Counted from the stretch's first letter, positions 1 through 64,000 are shown. The stretch is 64,000 nt of DNA from an uncultured bacterium (GCA_963517005.1 CAUQDZ010000002.1:12198-76197), one strand, 5' to 3'. Program-made: numbers and translations. The notes: generated by a model from the letters alone, not told the origin.

Positions 1-203
1 GTAGAAGACTCAAGAAAAGAGATTTCAGAAGATTGTGGATTGAGAGACTTTCAGCTGTAATTAGAGAAAGAGGAGGTAAATATTCTGTATTTGTAAATCT
101 TATGAATACAAAGGATATTAAGCTCGATAGAAAGGTACTTTCTAATATCGCAGTTGCCTTTCCAGCCGTGTTTGATGCAATTTATGATGAAGTCGTAAAA
201 TAA
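1..203 (+). CDS. rplT: 50S ribosomal protein L20, C-terminal part (5' end lies outside the window)
   Basis: Frame 3 reads ...RRLWIERLSAVIRERGGKYSVFVNLMNTKDIKLDRKVLSNIAVAFPAVFDAIYDEVVK with stop TAA at 201-203. This matches the conserved L20 C-terminus. Confidence 0.85.
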   Translation, partial: RRLKKRDFRRLWIERLSAVIRERGGKYSVFVNLMNTKDIKLDRKVLSNIAVAFPAVFDAIYDEVVK

Positions 204-260
204 AAATATTCCGAAAGAATAGGACGAAGAATAAAAAAGTCTGATTTCTTTCTTTGTTCT

Positions 261-346
261 GCCGGGGTGGTGGAATTGGTAGACACGAAGGACTTAAAAT
301 CCTTTGGGACTTAAATCCCGTGCCGGTTCGATTCCGGTCCTCGGCA
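261..346 (+). tRNA. tRNA-Leu, anticodon UAA (type II tRNA with long variable arm)
   Basis: Acceptor stem gccgggg/cctcggc. Anticodon stem aagga/tcctt with loop cTTAAaa. Long variable arm tgggacttaaatcccgt. T-arm gccgg-ttcgatt-ccggt. Confidence 0.85.
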
Positions 347-380
347 GTCGCTATTGTTTTTAATTGTTATTGTTATATCA

Positions 381-644
381 ATGGGATTTACCGTTCGAAG
401 AACAGGAGATTTGAATACTAATGAAAGAATTATCTCTTTTTACAAAAAGGAGCTTTGGTCTTCACATATCTTGGATAAAGCTAAGAAGCAAGTGCATTAT
501 GGAACTAAATGGTATAGAAAATTTGTAAGTTATGATTTTCCTTCTTCTAGAAGATATAAGAGAATGAGAGCGATTGTTTCAGATGCTTATAGAAAGACAA
601 AGAGAAAATACAATACTCTAGCACAACTTGGAAAGATTGTGTAA
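381..644 (+). CDS. hypothetical small basic protein
   Basis: Open frame from ATG 381 (the track ORF 354..644 starts at TTG) to TAA. Lys/Arg-rich with no recognisable motif. It fills the gap between the tRNA and rplU. Confidence 0.3.
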   Translation: MGFTVRRTGDLNTNERIISFYKKELWSSHILDKAKKQVHYGTKWYRKFVSYDFPSSRRYKRMRAIVSDAYRKTKRKYNTLAQLGKIV

Positions 645-670
645 ATTTATTTTGATATTTTGTATAAAGA

Positions 671-988
671 ATGTATGCAGTAGTAGATTTACAGGGACAT
701 CAATATATCGTTTCAGAAGGTGCTGAAATTGTAGTTGATAATCTTGGAGTTGCTCAATCTGAAAAATTCATAGCAGATAAAGTACTTGTGGCTTTTAGTC
801 AGGATGGTAAGGAAGTGAAAGTTGGAAAACCCACTATTGAGGGTGCAACTGTTGAATTTGAAGTAGGAGCTACTCAAAAAGGTGAAAAGGTAAAGATTCT
901 TAAGTTTAAGAGAAAAAATAGATATGCAAGACTTAAAGGATTTAGACCTCTTCAGACTATTTTAACTGTTAAAAAGATTAACGCTTAA
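671..988 (+). CDS. rplU: 50S ribosomal protein L21
   Basis: MYAVVDLQGHQYIVSEGAEIVVD... is a typical L21 N-terminus. The stop overlaps the infA start (TAATG). Confidence 0.95.
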   Translation: MYAVVDLQGHQYIVSEGAEIVVDNLGVAQSEKFIADKVLVAFSQDGKEVKVGKPTIEGATVEFEVGATQKGEKVKILKFKRKNRYARLKGFRPLQTILTVKKINA

Positions 989-61000: not shown

Positions 61001-63450
61001 AGGAGCAAGAAATTTCATATAATCATATCAAAGAACAATTACTTACTGATTATTCCTCAGCAAACAAACACTTTAAATCTCAAAGAAGACGACTTGCTAG
61101 CAAGTACGGTATAGGATCAGCTGCTCTCTCTGCAGGAACTGCTATTGGAATGCAGTATATGATGGGAACAGGAATGTTTTCGACAGAATCGGTTTCCCAT
61201 ACGGTTTCTTCAACTTCGAATGCATCCTCAAATGCTAATTTTAATCTATGATCTCATCAATTAGCAGAAGAAAATCAGATTCATTCTACGGTAGCAGATC
61301 AGTTTTCATCACTAGGAGACAAGGCAAACGTAGTAGCTCATTATGGTGCTGGAACAGATGCAACATTAGTTCGTGCGGGGTCTCAGGCACTTTGAGAGTC
61401 TGCTTATCAAGCGAAAGTAAATGCTGTTGCAGATCAGATTAAGCATCTTGCACTTTCTTCAGATCAAAAGGCAGCTTTCTTAAAAGAGTTGACAAATAGA
61501 CCGTGGGAGATGGATCGATCAAAAGCCTTTACCAATGATTATCTCCAAGGAGATAGATGTGCTGAGGGGCTTTTGCAGATGGCAAAAGGACTTGCTGATT
61601 CGGGAAATCAAACACTTATTCCAGATCTTGCTTATGATGCAGGAAGGAGCATCGCAGGAAATACACTACATAATTTAGGTGAGAGATCGTTCAATCTCGG
61701 ACTAGAAATTACTACACAAGCAGTACAAAATCAGCCAGGTAGTTGATCTACACGATTTGTGCCAATTGTTTCTTTCTTTAATACCTTCAAAAAAAATCCA
61801 AAATCTGAAGAAAAACAGGATAAAAATTCAGATTTAGATTCTACTATTCAATCAAAAGAACAAAATTCTGAAAAGCTTTCTCAGTATTCATCAGATTTGA
61901 AGCAATCGCATATTGCATGAGATCAAGATTGAGAAAAATTAGATAGTTCTACATCTACCTCAGCAAAAGTTGCAACAGGAGTAGCACTCGCTGGAGCAGC
62001 TGCAGTAGCTGTAGAAGCCCAAAGAAATCCTTCAAAAGCTCGTCAGTATCGAGAATCATTCAAGTCATGAGCTAAAAAATTTGGTGGAAAGATTAAAGAA
62101 TCTCGAAATAAAGCTGCTCTAAAGATTAGAGAAAAGAGGCCTACAATCAAAGAAAAGTCTAAAAAGGGACGAGAAAAGACTAAGGAAATTACTCATGATG
62201 GGGTCGAAAAAACAAAAGAAATTCGAAATTCAGCCTCAGAAAAAGTAAAAGAAAAATCTCCAGAGCGAAAGGAAAAAGCAAAACAGGGACGAGAAAAAAC
62301 AAAAGAAATTACAAAAAAATGAGCACAAAAAACAAAAGAAAAAATACAATCACTTAAAAATAGACTGTTTGATAAAGAAGGAAATGAGGGAGAAACGTCA
62401 GGTTTAGAGGATTTTGAAACATTAAAAAAGAGTGAAGCGGCGAAGTATTTTCTTGAGACTAAGGGGTGGATGAATCAGAGAGATGAAAACTGATATACAG
62501 TATTGGTAGAAAAAGAAGTTTTAAAACCTAAACAGAAAATTGATTATCACTGAAAAGTGGTTTATCTTACTGATAAAATTAATGATCATTATGTGATTGC
62601 TTATATAGAGCATAATGGGGTACTTGAGCCAAGAGTATTCCGTAGATCAAATTCAGGAGGAAATTGGCATGTAGTACCTGGTTATGATGGCTCAAGAGTT
62701 TCTAAAGGTGAATTTGTTAAGAATATCTCTTATGAAAAAGGAACTGTAGTACATCGTGATTTCAATCAAATTCTAGATGATATACTAGATCAAAATGAGA
62801 GAGTATCTTCTATGGAATTTGTGATGAAAGACGCTTATGGAAAAGATATTCCTCAATCTGCATATCAGGAGATTGGAAAACATTACGATGATATGCCAAA
62901 AGCAGCACAAGAGTTCTATGATGAAACTATCGTGTATGATGAGCTTATCCAAAATGAGTTTAATGTAAATAGTACCCGGAACAATGCTTTTGCAAACTAT
63001 CAAAATGTGGAACAAATAAAAACTTATTATGACAAGCTCAATTTGTCTAGGAAAATGGATTTTAGTGAGAGTCATATTATAGATAGTTATCATTCTGAGC
63101 ATAAATATCTTGGTAGTGTTGAAAATCAAGTGATGACAGCAAAAATAAAAAGTTCAAATCCTGACTTTGATGGACGTGAAGTGCAGATTACGATTTCTAC
63201 TGCACAAAAAGATGGACTTTCTTGGGTTGAAAATATGGTTTTTTCAGATGATTCAGGGACAAGTTTTCTAACTCAAAAAAATCCAATTTCTGCTGGACTT
63301 TTGACTACTAAACCTTTGGAATATGAAATTCAATTACCTCAATTTGTAAGAGAGGATCCTCTTTTAGAAGACTATATGCCTTATATTGATATTCGTCCTC
63401 TTATGCAAAATAATCCATTGATAAAAGAGTGGAAAAAAATACAATCTTAA
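58081..63450 (+). CDS. giant hypothetical protein (1789 aa): coiled-coil and acidic regions, Gly/Ala-rich hydrophobic segments, K/E-rich repeats
   Basis: Track ORFs 58066.., 58441.., 59662.., 61489.. and 62557.. share frame 1. I read every codon in all gaps and found only TGA, never TAA/TAG. Stop TAA 63448-63450. Start ATG 58081 (a TTG at 58066 is possible). Confidence 0.7.
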
Positions 63451-63502
63451 TGATCCTCATACGAAGGAATCAGCTTTTTACTCCTTTAAATCTCCAAAAA
63501 GA

Positions 63503-63838
63503 ATGAACGCAAACAACAATCAACATCTAGAAGAAGCTCATGAAGAAGATTTTCTCAATGATCTTTTACTTGAAGCTGGGTTTGATCCAGAAGAAGATGA
63601 CTTTGATCAACTTAAAGCAGAGTTAGAGCCAGTTTTGATGGATAGGATTATGACGAGTGTTTTTGATGCACTCACAGACCCTCAGAGAAAAGAAATTATG
63701 AAGCTTTTTGATGCAGGAAAAGAAGCCGAAGCATTAGAAAAAATTGAAAAACTAATTCCAGATTACGATAATTTTTTGGCGGAAGTTTTTGCAAATTTTC
63801 ACGATGAATATTTGGCTAATATGGAGCTTCCTGAATAA
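63503..63838 (+). CDS. small acidic hypothetical protein (111 aa)
   Basis: Clean ATG..TAA ORF, Asp/Glu-rich, no recognisable motif. Confidence 0.5.
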   Translation: MNANNNQHLEEAHEEDFLNDLLLEAGFDPEEDDFDQLKAELEPVLMDRIMTSVFDALTDPQRKEIMKLFDAGKEAEALEKIEKLIPDYDNFLAEVFANFHDEYLANMELPE

Positions 63839-63859
63839 TCATTTTTAATCTAAAAAAAT

Positions 63860-63910
63860 AAAAATCTGACTTTTGATCTTGATAGTAATCTACAAGGTAG
63901 TCAGATTTTT
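63860..63910 (+). terminator. long-loop hairpin formed by an inverted pair of the AAAATCTGAC motif
   Basis: aaaaatctgac (63860-63870) and gtcagattttt (63900-63910), an 11-bp perfect inverted repeat followed by a T-run. Confidence 0.5.
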
Positions 63911-64000
63911 TTAATTGTTTTTTATATTGCTGGATATTATTCTATTCCTATCCTTTAAATAAGTCATTTAGAGACTCAGAGATTGTCGGATGGGTAAAAA

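What the first reader, a model, noticed from the sequence alone, without database searches (positions are those of the whole stretch)
1..64000. UGA is a sense (glycine) codon throughout: translation table 25
In-frame TGA sits exactly where universally conserved glycines are expected:
- infA 1183-1185 (..KQ-G-RIVYRY)
- rpmJ 1325-1327 (VKRK-G-RLYV)
- rpoA 3027-3029 (RGF-G-HTLGNALRR)
- adk 5563-5565 (GSGK-G-TQ P-loop)
- nrdR (VVKKD-G-T and SKQI-G-S)
- nrdD (SSQY-G-GQS and FE-G-RFNQGV)
- pilB 46731-46733 and 46755-46757 ([17 protein letters not shown])
- mscL
- the CobW-like P-loop at 56699-56701

Every reconstructed gene ends in TAA or TAG. Without this recoding the window looks like a field of pseudogenes. 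With it, more than 50 track fragments collapse into intact genes.

Code 25 is documented for the SR1/Absconditabacteria and Gracilibacteria lineages. This assigns the contig to that lineage and fixes how it must be annotated.
Basis: partly seen in the sequence, partly recalled or inferred. Interest (0 to 1): 0.6.

Follow-up and report, generated by a model that had tools for sequence, protein, structure and literature searches.

The report
UGA-glycine, CGA/CGG-tryptophan recoded genome

Summary
Reading TGA as sense turns 135 short ORFs (73% coverage) into 61 long ones (92%). Reading TAG or TAA as sense gives no gain. TGA means glycine:
- In NrdD, 12 of 13 TGA columns are Gly-majority in 96 standard-code homologs (0% Trp).
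- The rpoA, adk, rpmJ, nrdR, trmD, pilB and CobW sites also align with Gly.
- In relatives, TGA swaps with GGA/GGT/GGC/GGG.
- A tRNA(UCA) with glycine identity elements lies 1.8 kb upstream of the window.
- The genome has RF1 but no RF2.

All 40 sampled genomes of the same order are recoded. Across the class, loss of RF2 matches in-frame TGA exactly.

The genome also reads CGA, and very probably CGG, as tryptophan:
- All four NrdD CGA codons sit on Trp columns.
- In same-genus orthologs, CGA pairs with TGG/CGA/CGG in 80% of cases and never with AGA/AGG/CGT/CGC.
- CGG pairs with the Trp set in 9 of 13 cases and never with those Arg codons.
- tRNA(UCG) and tRNA(CCG) carry Trp-type features (G73, U20).

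This is the Absconditabacteria code predicted by Codetta in 2021. Earlier agents of this scan reported the same double recoding in other genomes. It is already known.

The parts
1..64000 (.). Whole window: coding sequence written in a code with UGA=Gly and CGA/CGG=Trp. About 230 in-frame TGA, 86 CGA and 5 CGG codons in 58 ORFs.
1183..1185 (+). TGA in infA (KQ-X-RIVYRY)
   Evidence: Aligns with G in 2 of 3 PDB IF-1 chains and A in 1
1325..1327 (+). TGA in rpmJ (VKRK-X-RLYV)
   Evidence: G in 3/3 PDB L36 chains
3027..3029 (+). TGA in rpoA (RGF-X-HTLGN)
   Evidence: G in 5/5 standard-code Patescibacteria orthologs
5563..5565 (+). TGA in the adenylate kinase P-loop (GSGK-X-TQ)
   Evidence: G in 3/3 PDB kinases
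14757..14768 (+). Run of seven glycines (SNGGGGGGGYY) in the 1750-aa surface protein. Residues 1194, 1195 and 1197 are TGA; the rest are GGN.
24319..26514 (+). nrdD (class III ribonucleotide reductase), with 13 TGA and 4 CGA. The best calibration gene, because it is 70-73% identical to standard-code Firmicutes/Fusobacteria orthologs.
25036..25038 (+). TGA in nrdD aa 240 (SSQY-X-GQS)
   Evidence: G in 96/96 standard-code homologs
25609..25611 (+). TGA in nrdD aa 431 (FE-X-RFNQGV)
   Evidence: G in 96/96
25576..25578 (+). CGA in nrdD aa 420
   Evidence: Column is W 62 / Y 34 in 96 standard-code homologs, R 0
25987..25989 (+). CGA in nrdD aa 557
   Evidence: W in 96/96
26377..26379 (+). CGA in nrdD aa 687
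   Evidence: W in 96/96
26461..26463 (+). CGA in nrdD aa 715
   Evidence: W in 96/96
25786..25788 (+). The only TGG in nrdD (aa 490), used as control
   Evidence: W in 96/96
29664..29666 (+). CGA in trmD aa 222
   Evidence: W in 3/3 aligned standard-code orthologs
46758..46760 (+). TGA in pilB (GRV-X-LYE); corrected coordinate
   Evidence: G in 5/5
53030..53032 (-). CGA in relA/spoT aa 680
   Evidence: W in 15 of 20 standard-code orthologs, R 0
54245..54247 (-). TGA in relA/spoT aa 275
   Evidence: G in 18/20. Relatives carry TGA, GGT or GGA in this column.
56699..56701 (-). TGA in the CobW-like Walker A motif (LLL-X-TLGAGKTT)
   Evidence: G in E. coli YjiA
19248..19321 (+). tRNA-Arg(CCU), a genuine arginine tRNA (A20, A73). 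It contrasts with the Trp-type tRNA(UCG) and tRNA(CCG) found elsewhere in the genome.

Best explanation
The window belongs to a roughly 1.0-Mb, 35% G+C genome of an uncultured Absconditabacterales (SR1)-type member of the Patescibacteria. Its genetic code carries three reassignments.

(1) UGA is glycine. A dedicated tRNA(UCA) is probably charged by GlyRS, because it keeps the glycine identity set (G1:C72, C2:G71, G3:C70, U73, C35). Release factor 2 has been lost, so nothing terminates at UGA. RF1 terminates at UAA and UAG.

(2) and (3) CGA and CGG are tryptophan. They are read by tRNA(UCG) and tRNA(CCG), which have lost the arginine determinant A20 and carry the tryptophan-type G73 discriminator and an A/G1:U72 pair. 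Arginine is left with AGA, AGG, CGU and CGC, read by tRNA(UCU), tRNA(CCU) and tRNA(GCG).

Shown here: the codon-to-residue correspondences, the tRNA genes and their sequence features, the absence of prfB, and the phylogenetic spread.

Inferred: the actual aminoacylation of the three tRNAs and the in vivo translation.
For: UGA = Gly:
- ORF statistics.
- NrdD: 12 of 13 TGA columns are Gly-majority. Pooled G is 83.5% and W 0% in 96 standard-code homologs, against a Gly background of 6.3%. The TGG control is 100% W.
- Further sites align with Gly.
- In RelA of 11 relatives, columns holding TGA share with GGA 79, GGT 58, GGC 26 and GGG 24 (46% against a 3% background); TGG appears twice.
- In same-genus orthologs, TGA (n=409) pairs with TGA 166, GGA 77, GGT 46, GGG 22 and GGC 5.
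- At invariant-Gly NrdD columns, recoded genomes use GGN or TGA in 374 of 396 cells.
- tRNA(UCA) lies at G000:C2:10408-10481. It has the GCGGAT...CCGC acceptor stem and U73, shared with tRNA-Gly(GCC/UCC) of relative G206, and is 85% identical to G206's own tRNA(UCA). tRNA-Trp keeps anticodon CCA.
- There is one class-I release factor gene. It scores above the prfA cut-off and below the prfB cut-off.
- 40 of 40 genomes of the same order have 2-31 TGA inside RelA.
- In a 91-genome class sample, the families with in-frame TGA (f1, f113, f111, f115, f117) are exactly those with no prfB. 71 of the other 73 genomes have it.

CGA/CGG = Trp:
- 4 of 4 NrdD CGA codons lie on W columns, while CGT, CGC, AGG and AGA lie on R columns.
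- Pooled over distant orthologs, CGA aligns with W at 62% (TGG 64%) and with R at 0%.
- At invariant-W NrdD columns, 10 recoded genomes use TGG 27 and CGA 11. At invariant-R columns (229 cells) they use no CGA or CGG.
- Same-genus matrix over 117 ORFs: CGA (n=149) pairs with TGG 82, CGA 36 and CGG 2, and with the four Arg codons 0 times. CGG (n=13) pairs with TGG 6 and CGA 3, and with the Arg codons 0 times. AGA (n=1156) pairs with the Arg codons in 79%.
- tRNA(UCG) and tRNA(CCG) have U20 and G73, like tRNA-Trp(CCA). The three true tRNA-Arg have A20 and A73.
- Trp content rises from 0.78% to a normal 1.37%.
- This matches the prediction and the tRNA criteria of Shulgina & Eddy 2021 (PMC8629427).
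Against: - Nothing here is direct protein evidence. All codon meanings are inferred from alignments and tRNA sequence features.
- CGG rests on only 13 aligned codons within one genus plus the tRNA(CCG) features. No CGG of this genome fell on a conserved column of a standard-code ortholog.
- Several TGA sites lie at variable positions: 3 of 6 in RelA, 4 of 7 in the MTA/SAH nucleosidase, the mscL site and one pilB site. They say nothing either way.
- The assembly holds no ordinary tRNA-Gly (31 tRNAs; Gly, Val, Asp and Glu-UUC are missing), so the comparison with canonical tRNA-Gly used a relative.
- ARAGORN draws the acceptor stems one base off. The G73/U72 reading is my own register, anchored on U8, the D-stem and the T-loop.
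- Low-level ambiguous decoding cannot be excluded, for example UGG read by tRNA-Gly(UCA) through wobble.
Confidence: 0.93

Rival explanations
1. Plain NCBI table 25: UGA = Gly and every other codon standard, so CGA and CGG are arginine.
For: UGA = Gly is fully supported. Table 25 is the only official table for this clade. ARAGORN labels the tRNAs with anticodons UCG and CCG as Arg.
Against: CGA sits on invariant Trp columns and never on Arg columns. CGA and CGG never swap with AGA/AGG/CGT/CGC in same-genus orthologs, but swap freely with TGG. Both tRNAs lack A20 and have G73.
Confidence: 0.04
2. Table 4 (Mycoplasma-type): UGA = tryptophan. Public pipelines evidently assumed this for the closest relatives.
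For: 24 of the 120 best NrdD database hits carry W at these positions. Gene callers that choose between tables 4 and 11 by coding density would pick table 4.
Against: Those W residues occur only in the closest relatives, at columns that are Gly in 96 standard-code homologs. They are therefore translation artefacts. W is 0% at TGA columns in every standard-code comparison. tRNA-Trp has anticodon CCA, and the UCA tRNA has Gly identity elements. TGA swaps with GGN, not TGG.
Confidence: 0.01
3. Ambiguous or transitional decoding: CGA/CGG (or UGG/UGA) are read as two amino acids at appreciable rates. For example, CGG might still be partly Arg, or tRNA-Gly(UCA) might wobble onto UGG.
For: CGG is very rare (0.54 per 1000 codons), as expected for a codon in transition. 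The CGG evidence is thin (n=13). Hanke et al. 2014 (PMC4032931) mention low levels of 'mistranslation' at UGA, with a single peptide detected for tryptophan. Shulgina & Eddy point out the U34 wobble risk.
Against: No Arg-type tRNA able to read CGA or CGG was found here or in the tRNAs recovered from the near-complete single-contig relative G206 (36 distinct; no ACG anticodon). CGA is as common as a normal sense codon and behaves exactly like TGG.
Confidence: 0.1
4. Not a code change at all: a decayed genome or assembly full of pseudogenes, or selenocysteine insertion at UGA.
For: Under table 11 the window looks like a field of fragments. ARAGORN calls the tRNA(UCA) 'SeC'.
Against: Only TGA interrupts the frames, never TAA or TAG. 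91% of long ORFs contain TGA, at 13 per 1000 codons, which is far too many for selenocysteine. The tRNA is an ordinary 74-nt tRNA with Gly identity. The same pattern holds in 40 of 40 genomes of the order.
Confidence: 0.005

Closest known systems
Absconditabacteria (SR1) code predicted by Codetta: UGA to Gly plus CGA and CGG to Trp (Shulgina & Eddy 2021, eLife 10:e71402, PMC8629427)
   Same: All three reassignments match. So do the tRNA signatures: tRNA(UCA) with G1:C72, C2:G71, G3:C70 and U73; tRNA(UCG) and tRNA(CCG) with G73 and no A20; tRNA(GCG) for CGU/CGC; no tRNA(ACG). The genome is also low in G+C and lacks RF2.
   Different: CGA is more frequent here (5.3 per 1000 codons in all ORFs of at least 100 aa, about 39% of Trp codons) than the under 3.7 per 1000 that the paper reports for its species. 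The paper counted aligned Pfam columns, so the figures are not strictly comparable. CGG is as rare as they describe.
NCBI translation table 25 (Candidate Division SR1 and Gracilibacteria; Campbell et al. 2013 PNAS, PMC3619370; Rinke et al. 2013; Hanke et al. 2014, PMC4032931)
   Same: UGA = Gly, tRNA-Gly(UCA), loss of RF2, small low-GC CPR genome.
   Different: Table 25 leaves CGA and CGG as Arg. In this genome that is wrong at about 0.6% of codons.
NCBI table 4 (Mycoplasmatales and several endosymbionts): UGA to Trp
   Same: UGA is captured as a sense codon after loss of RF2 in a small AT-rich genome. Gene callers confuse the two codes.
   Different: The amino acid is Gly, not Trp. tRNA-Trp keeps CCA, and a separate Gly-type tRNA reads UGA.
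CGG to Trp reassignments in Anaerococcus and in RFN20 Bacilli/Onthovivens (PMC8629427; PMC13092985)
   Same: An arginine CGN codon is captured by a Trp-type tRNA in a low-GC genome.
   Different: Those lineages reassign only CGG and lack tRNA(UCG). Here CGA is the main reassigned codon, and both tRNA(UCG) and tRNA(CCG) are Trp-type.

Membership tests
NCBI table 25 (UGA=Gly) organisms | In-frame UGA in most genes, aligning with glycine in orthologs | tested here: met
   627 of 686 long ORFs contain TGA. NrdD: 12 of 13 columns Gly-majority, 0% W.
NCBI table 25 (UGA=Gly) organisms | tRNA with anticodon UCA carrying glycine identity elements (G1:C72, C2:G71, G3:C70, U73) | tested here: met
   G000:C2:10408-10481, 1.8 kb upstream of the window. 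85% identical to the tRNA(UCA) of relative G206. Shares the acceptor stem and U73 with G206 tRNA-Gly(GCC/UCC).
NCBI table 25 (UGA=Gly) organisms | RF2 (prfB) absent, RF1 present | tested here: met
   Single class-I RF at C10:24620-25687: 441 bits against the prfA cut-off of 423, and 269 bits against the prfB cut-off of 370. Genome is 95.9% complete. prfB was not found in any recoded family of the class sample.
NCBI table 25 (UGA=Gly) organisms | Placement in the Absconditabacterales/BD1-5 lineage (GTDB class JAEDAM01 according to PMC13695967) | tested here: inconclusive
   Relatives are titled Ca. Absconditabacterales, Ca. Gracilibacteria or 'Peribacteria'. 40 of 40 genomes of the same order are recoded. 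Handles carry no taxon names, and the tool's 'class' also holds standard-code families. The name rests on record titles and on the CGA/CGG signature.
NCBI table 25 (UGA=Gly) organisms | All other 63 codons keep their standard meaning | tested here: not met
   CGA, and probably CGG, encode Trp.
Absconditabacteria code (UGA=Gly, CGA/CGG=Trp; Codetta prediction) | CGA aligns with Trp, not Arg | tested here: met
   NrdD 4 of 4. Pooled W 62%, R 0%. Invariant-W columns hold TGG 27 / CGA 11; invariant-R columns hold 0 of 229. Ortholog matrix n=149: 80.5% in the Trp set, 0% in the Arg codons.
Absconditabacteria code (UGA=Gly, CGA/CGG=Trp; Codetta prediction) | CGG aligns with Trp, not Arg | tested here: met
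   Small sample: 13 G000 CGG codons pair with TGG 6, CGA 3 and the Arg codons 0. In the reverse direction, G000 TGG pairs with CGG 10 times. In RelA of 11 relatives, TGG columns share with CGG 8 times. No CGG fell on a conserved column against standard-code orthologs.
Absconditabacteria code (UGA=Gly, CGA/CGG=Trp; Codetta prediction) | tRNA(UCG) and tRNA(CCG) with G73 and without A20 (Trp-type); A/G1:U72 as support | tested here: met
   C23:15145-15217 (G1.U72, U20, G73) and C3:10715-10787 (A1:U72, U20, G73). True tRNA-Arg (UCU, CCU, GCG) have A20 and A73.
Absconditabacteria code (UGA=Gly, CGA/CGG=Trp; Codetta prediction) | No inosine-type tRNA-Arg(ACG) that could read CGA as Arg | tested here: inconclusive
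   None among the 31 tRNAs of this incomplete assembly, and none among the 36 distinct tRNAs recovered from fetched loci of the near-complete (99%), single-contig relative G206 (of 41 Rfam matches). The missing 4% of G000 cannot be excluded.
Absconditabacteria code (UGA=Gly, CGA/CGG=Trp; Codetta prediction) | Gly at UGA and Trp at CGA/CGG in the proteins actually made | not testable with these tools
   Needs proteomics or in vitro aminoacylation.
NCBI table 4 (UGA=Trp) | UGA aligns with Trp; tRNA-Trp has anticodon UCA | tested here: not met
   0% W at TGA columns. tRNA-Trp has anticodon CCA.
Selenocysteine recoding | Rare UGA sites served by a long-armed tRNA-Sec | tested here: not met
   13 TGA per 1000 codons, in 91% of long ORFs. 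The tRNA(UCA) is an ordinary 74-nt tRNA with Gly acceptor features. selA/selB and SECIS elements were not searched.

The most novel reading that the evidence does not exclude
This genus may represent the most advanced known stage of the Arg-to-Trp capture. CGA already makes up about 39% of all Trp codons (5.3 per 1000 codons against 7.8 for UGG). It occupies 3 of the 4 invariant Trp positions of NrdD in this genome.

One possible driver is selection to move tryptophan away from UGG, which tRNA-Gly(UCA) could misread through U:G wobble. If so, the UGA-to-Gly change itself would have pushed the second reassignment.

My data show the high CGA usage. They do not test the causal link.
Probability: 0.12. 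Interest if true: 0.5.

Novelty: already known. Interest (0 to 1): 0.22.

Why it matters
The consequence is practical.
- Table 11 shatters this genome into fragments.
- Table 4, which public pipelines evidently used for the closest relatives, writes Trp at every UGA-encoded glycine.
- Table 25 still writes Arg at about 0.6% of codons that are really Trp, including invariant catalytic-core tryptophans.

Any protein family analysis, structure prediction or HMM built from such translations inherits these errors.

Biologically, this is one more instance of a known case. It adds clean within-genome evidence for the CGA/CGG-to-Trp prediction, which by the papers I read still lacks experimental confirmation.

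Tried and rejected
- A phylum-wide sample was too dilute to show the spread of recoding. Order and class samples were needed.
- Searches for the MTA/SAH nucleosidase and the CobW-like protein in five standard-code genomes found nothing. PDB was used instead, after two searches with thresholds that were too strict.
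- The thymidylate synthase PDB alignment gave no information on CGG. Its CGA and CGG codons fall at variable or inserted positions.
- The other large CGG-bearing ORFs are lineage-specific or carry CGG in their termini.
- The mscL site is inconclusive: it aligns with N in S. aureus MscL.
- ARAGORN's 'SeC' and 'Arg' labels and its acceptor-stem register were not accepted. I re-registered the tRNAs on U8, the D-stem and the T-loop.
- Table 4, selenocysteine and pseudogene readings were considered and rejected (see rivals).
I found only scattered genes free of recoded codons: enolase, acetate kinase, two phage capsid genes and two unknowns. All contigs except the 3.6-kb C36 show the TGA-sense gain. 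I saw no standard-code block in the window.

Full report
WHAT WAS CHECKED. The window is G000:C2:12198-76197 of a 1.00-Mb, 36-contig, roughly 35% G+C genome, estimated 95.9% complete with 2.8% contamination.

Two coordinates need correcting. The second pilB codon is at 46758-46760. The CobW codon at 56699-56701 lies on the minus strand.

IS TGA A SENSE CODON? Under table 11, a greedy non-overlapping ORF set of the window has 135 ORFs with a mean of 114 aa and 72.7% coverage. With TGA read through it has 61 ORFs, a mean of 320 aa and 91.6% coverage.

Genome-wide, coverage goes from 65% to 90% and mean ORF length from 128 to 300 aa. 627 of 686 ORFs of at least 150 aa contain TGA. TGA makes up 13 per 1000 codons. 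Stops are 502 TAA and 184 TAG. Every contig except a 3.6-kb one shows the gain. The merged ORFs match Pfam families end to end: infA, rpsD, rpoA, adk, nrdR, nrdD, nrdG, trmD, pilB, pilC, relA/spoT, a CobW-like GTPase, a nicotianamine-synthase-like protein and others.

WHICH AMINO ACID? The best calibration gene is nrdD (24319-26514, 13 TGA), because it is 70-73% identical to orthologs from standard-code Firmicutes and Fusobacteria.

In 96 such homologs, 12 of the 13 TGA columns are Gly-majority and six are 100% Gly. Pooled Gly is 83.5% against a 6.3% background, and Trp is 0%. The one TGG column is 100% Trp.

The 24 closest database relatives carry W at these and other Gly columns. They were evidently translated with table 4, so the W marks their own TGA codons.

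Other sites, with TGA masked as X:
- adk P-loop: G 3/3
- rpmJ: G 3/3
- infA: G, A, G
- rpoA: G 5/5
- nrdR: G 4/5 and 4/5
- trmD: G 5/5 and 3/3
- pilB GRV-X-LYE: G 5/5
- pilC: two sites at G 3/3
- CobW Walker A: G in YjiA
- MTA/SAH nucleosidase: two sites at G 3/3
- RelA: three of six sites Gly-majority, the rest in a variable linker

The pilB CPVC-X-GSG site and the mscL site are not conserved glycines.

Within the lineage the test does not depend on distant alignments. In RelA of 11 relatives, codons sharing a column with TGA are GGA 79, GGT 58, GGC 26 and GGG 24. That is 46% against a 3% background, and TGG appears only twice. In 117 same-genus orthologous ORFs, TGA (n=409) pairs with TGA 166, GGA 77, GGT 46, GGG 22 and GGC 5. 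Inside the 1750-aa surface protein, a run of seven glycines mixes GGN and TGA codons.

MACHINERY. A 74-nt tRNA with anticodon UCA lies 1.8 kb upstream of the window (C2:10408-10481), in a tRNA cluster.
- It has G1:C72, C2:G71, G3:C70 and U73. These are the criteria Shulgina & Eddy used for glycine acceptors.
- The near-complete (99%), single-contig same-family genome G206 has an 85%-identical tRNA(UCA), plus tRNA-Gly(GCC) and tRNA-Gly(UCC) that share the GCGGA(T/A)...CCGC-U73 acceptor end.
- tRNA-Trp keeps anticodon CCA, with A1:U72 and G73.
- This assembly holds no ordinary tRNA-Gly. Only 30-31 tRNAs are present, and Gly, Val, Asp and Glu-UUC are missing. The likely cause is an unassembled tRNA cluster like the one at 659-661.5 kb of G206.

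The genome has one class-I release factor gene. It scores above the prfA cut-off (441 against 423 bits) and below the prfB cut-off (269 against 370 bits). It contains two in-frame TGA codons itself.

LINEAGE AND SPREAD. RelA relatives in the species-representative collection are titled Ca. Absconditabacterales, Ca. Gracilibacteria or 'uncultured Ca. Peribacteria'. All 11 have in-frame TGA and no internal TAA or TAG.

All 40 sampled genomes of the same order (one family, 22 genera) carry 2-31 TGA inside RelA.

In a 91-genome sample of the class, in-frame TGA occurs in families f1, f113, f111, f115 and f117 and not in the others. prfB is missing from exactly those families (0/7, 0/6, 0/1, 0/2, 0/1). 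It is present in 71 of the 73 remaining genomes.

gTranslate (PMC13695967) assigns table 25 to GTDB class JAEDAM01, which holds Absconditabacterales and BD1-5. The tool's 'class' is evidently broader than that, since it also holds standard-code families. I cannot see taxon names behind the handles.

THE TWIST: CGA AND CGG. The control showed TGG columns sharing mainly with CGA (9) and CGG (8). Codetta (PMC8629427) predicts that Absconditabacteria also read CGA and CGG as Trp. I tested this here.
- All four CGA codons of nrdD lie on Trp columns of the 96 standard-code homologs: 96/96, 96/96, 96/96, and W 62 / Y 34. CGT, CGC, AGG and AGA lie on Arg columns.
- Against distant standard-code Patescibacteria, CGA aligns with W at 62% (TGG 64%) and with R at 0%. 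This includes trmD aa 222 (W 3/3) and relA aa 680 (W 15/20).
- In the nrdD genes of 10 recoded genomes, invariant-Trp columns use TGG 27 and CGA 11. Invariant-Arg columns (229 cells) use AGA, AGG, CGT and CGC, and never CGA or CGG.
- In the same-genus codon matrix, CGA (n=149) pairs with TGG 82, CGA 36 and CGG 2, and never with the four Arg codons.
- In the same matrix, CGG (n=13) pairs with TGG 6 and CGA 3, and never with the Arg codons.
- TGG (n=253) pairs with CGA 25 and CGG 10. AGA (n=1156) stays within the Arg codons in 79% of cases.
- CGA to TGG needs two base changes, so this is synonymy and not mutational proximity.

The tRNAs agree. tRNA(UCG) sits 10-13 nt upstream of tRNA-Trp(CCA) on C23. 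Both tRNA(UCG) and tRNA(CCG) (on C3) have U20 and G73, with G1.U72 and A1:U72 respectively, as tRNA-Trp does. tRNA-Arg(UCU), (CCU) and (GCG) have A20 and A73. ARAGORN's drawing is one base out of register.

Usage per 1000 codons is CGA 5.3, CGG 0.54 and TGG 7.8. Counting CGA and CGG as Trp raises Trp from 0.78% to 1.37%.

In the window, 32 of 58 ORFs hold about 86 CGA and 5 CGG codons.

COMPARISON WITH WHAT IS KNOWN.
- UGA = Gly in SR1 and Gracilibacteria dates from 2013 (Campbell et al., Rinke et al.). Proteomic support for a BD1-5 bacterium came in 2014 (PMC4032931).
- CGA/CGG = Trp in Absconditabacteria was predicted in 2021, with the same tRNA criteria. A 2026 paper treats it as given (PMC13092985).
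- Neither paper reports experimental confirmation for CGA/CGG.
- Earlier agents of this scan reported the same double recoding in other genomes. A word search returned 109 notes in at least 39 genomes, and all eight shown report it.

VERDICT. The correct translation uses UGA=Gly, CGA=Trp and CGG=Trp, with CGG the least certain. The novelty class is 'already known', and interest is low beyond annotation.

Noticed in passing
window 23693-27874 (nrdR, nrdD, nrdG): nrdD is 70-73% identical to Sneathia and Clostridia orthologs. Within the order it is found only in this genus (8/8) and one other genome out of 22 genera. It looks horizontally acquired from a standard-code donor, and has since accumulated 13 TGA (Gly) and 4 CGA (Trp) codons.
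   Followed up: partly
database relatives of nrdD (P0003-P0026): The 24 closest public NrdD proteins carry W at invariant Gly columns. They were translated with table 4, so the public protein records of this clade are systematically wrong at every UGA.
   Followed up: yes
G000:C23:15145-15301 (outside the window): The Trp-type tRNA(UCG) lies 10-13 nt upstream of tRNA-Trp(CCA), as a tandem pair. tRNA(UCG) appears to have a U27-C43 mismatch, which would give a 4-bp anticodon stem.
   Followed up: partly
G000, whole assembly: No tRNA-Gly(GCC/UCC), tRNA-Val, tRNA-Asp or tRNA-Glu(UUC) is present in the 36 contigs. The relative G206 has a cluster of more than 10 tRNAs at 659-661.5 kb, so a similar cluster is probably unassembled here.
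   Followed up: partly
window 1409-2192, 3967-4353, 19803-20909; G000:C13:19418-20674; G000:C25:3548-4813: Probably highly expressed genes contain no TGA, CGA or CGG at all: ribosomal proteins, the 368-aa S1 protein, enolase and acetate kinase. This suggests the recoded codons are avoided where translation speed or accuracy matters.
   Followed up: partly
G000:C18 (18.5 kb) and G000:C36 (3.6 kb), outside the window: Both carry an SU10-type phage major capsid gene free of recoded codons. On C18 the neighbouring phage-like genes use the host code (a 968-aa ORF has 22 TGA and 7 CGA/CGG), so this is a phage or prophage adapted to the recoded host. C36 has almost no TGA and may be a standard-code fragment or contaminant.
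   Followed up: partly
G000:C16:713-3871 and G000:C3:15009-16793, outside the window: A 1052-aa ORF and a 594-aa ORF have no Pfam match and not a single TGA, CGA or CGG (Poisson P about 2e-9 and 1e-5). The reason is unknown.
   Followed up: no
G000:C10:24620-25687, outside the window: The only release factor gene (RF1) itself contains two in-frame TGA codons.
   Followed up: yes
window 33962-36676 (-): This 904-aa ORF (11 TGA, 6 CGA, 1 CGG) gave no Pfam family at E <= 1e-3 when translated with table 25. It should be re-searched with CGA and CGG read as Trp.
   Followed up: no
window 53303-53305 (-), relA aa 589: This TGA aligns with aromatic or hydrophobic codons (TTT, TGG, TAT, CTC, GTT) in relatives. 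It lies in an insertion relative to standard-code orthologs. It is probably just a variable linker, but it is the one TGA site that looks un-Gly-like.
   Followed up: partly
window 6655-11139, 11178-16430, 58066-63450: Three giant lineage-specific ORFs (1494, 1750 and 1794 aa) are open only under the recoded code, with 17, 9 and 27 TGA. The largest had no Pfam match, and the other two were not scanned against Pfam. The first ends in a Gly-rich tail in which several glycines are TGA.
   Followed up: no
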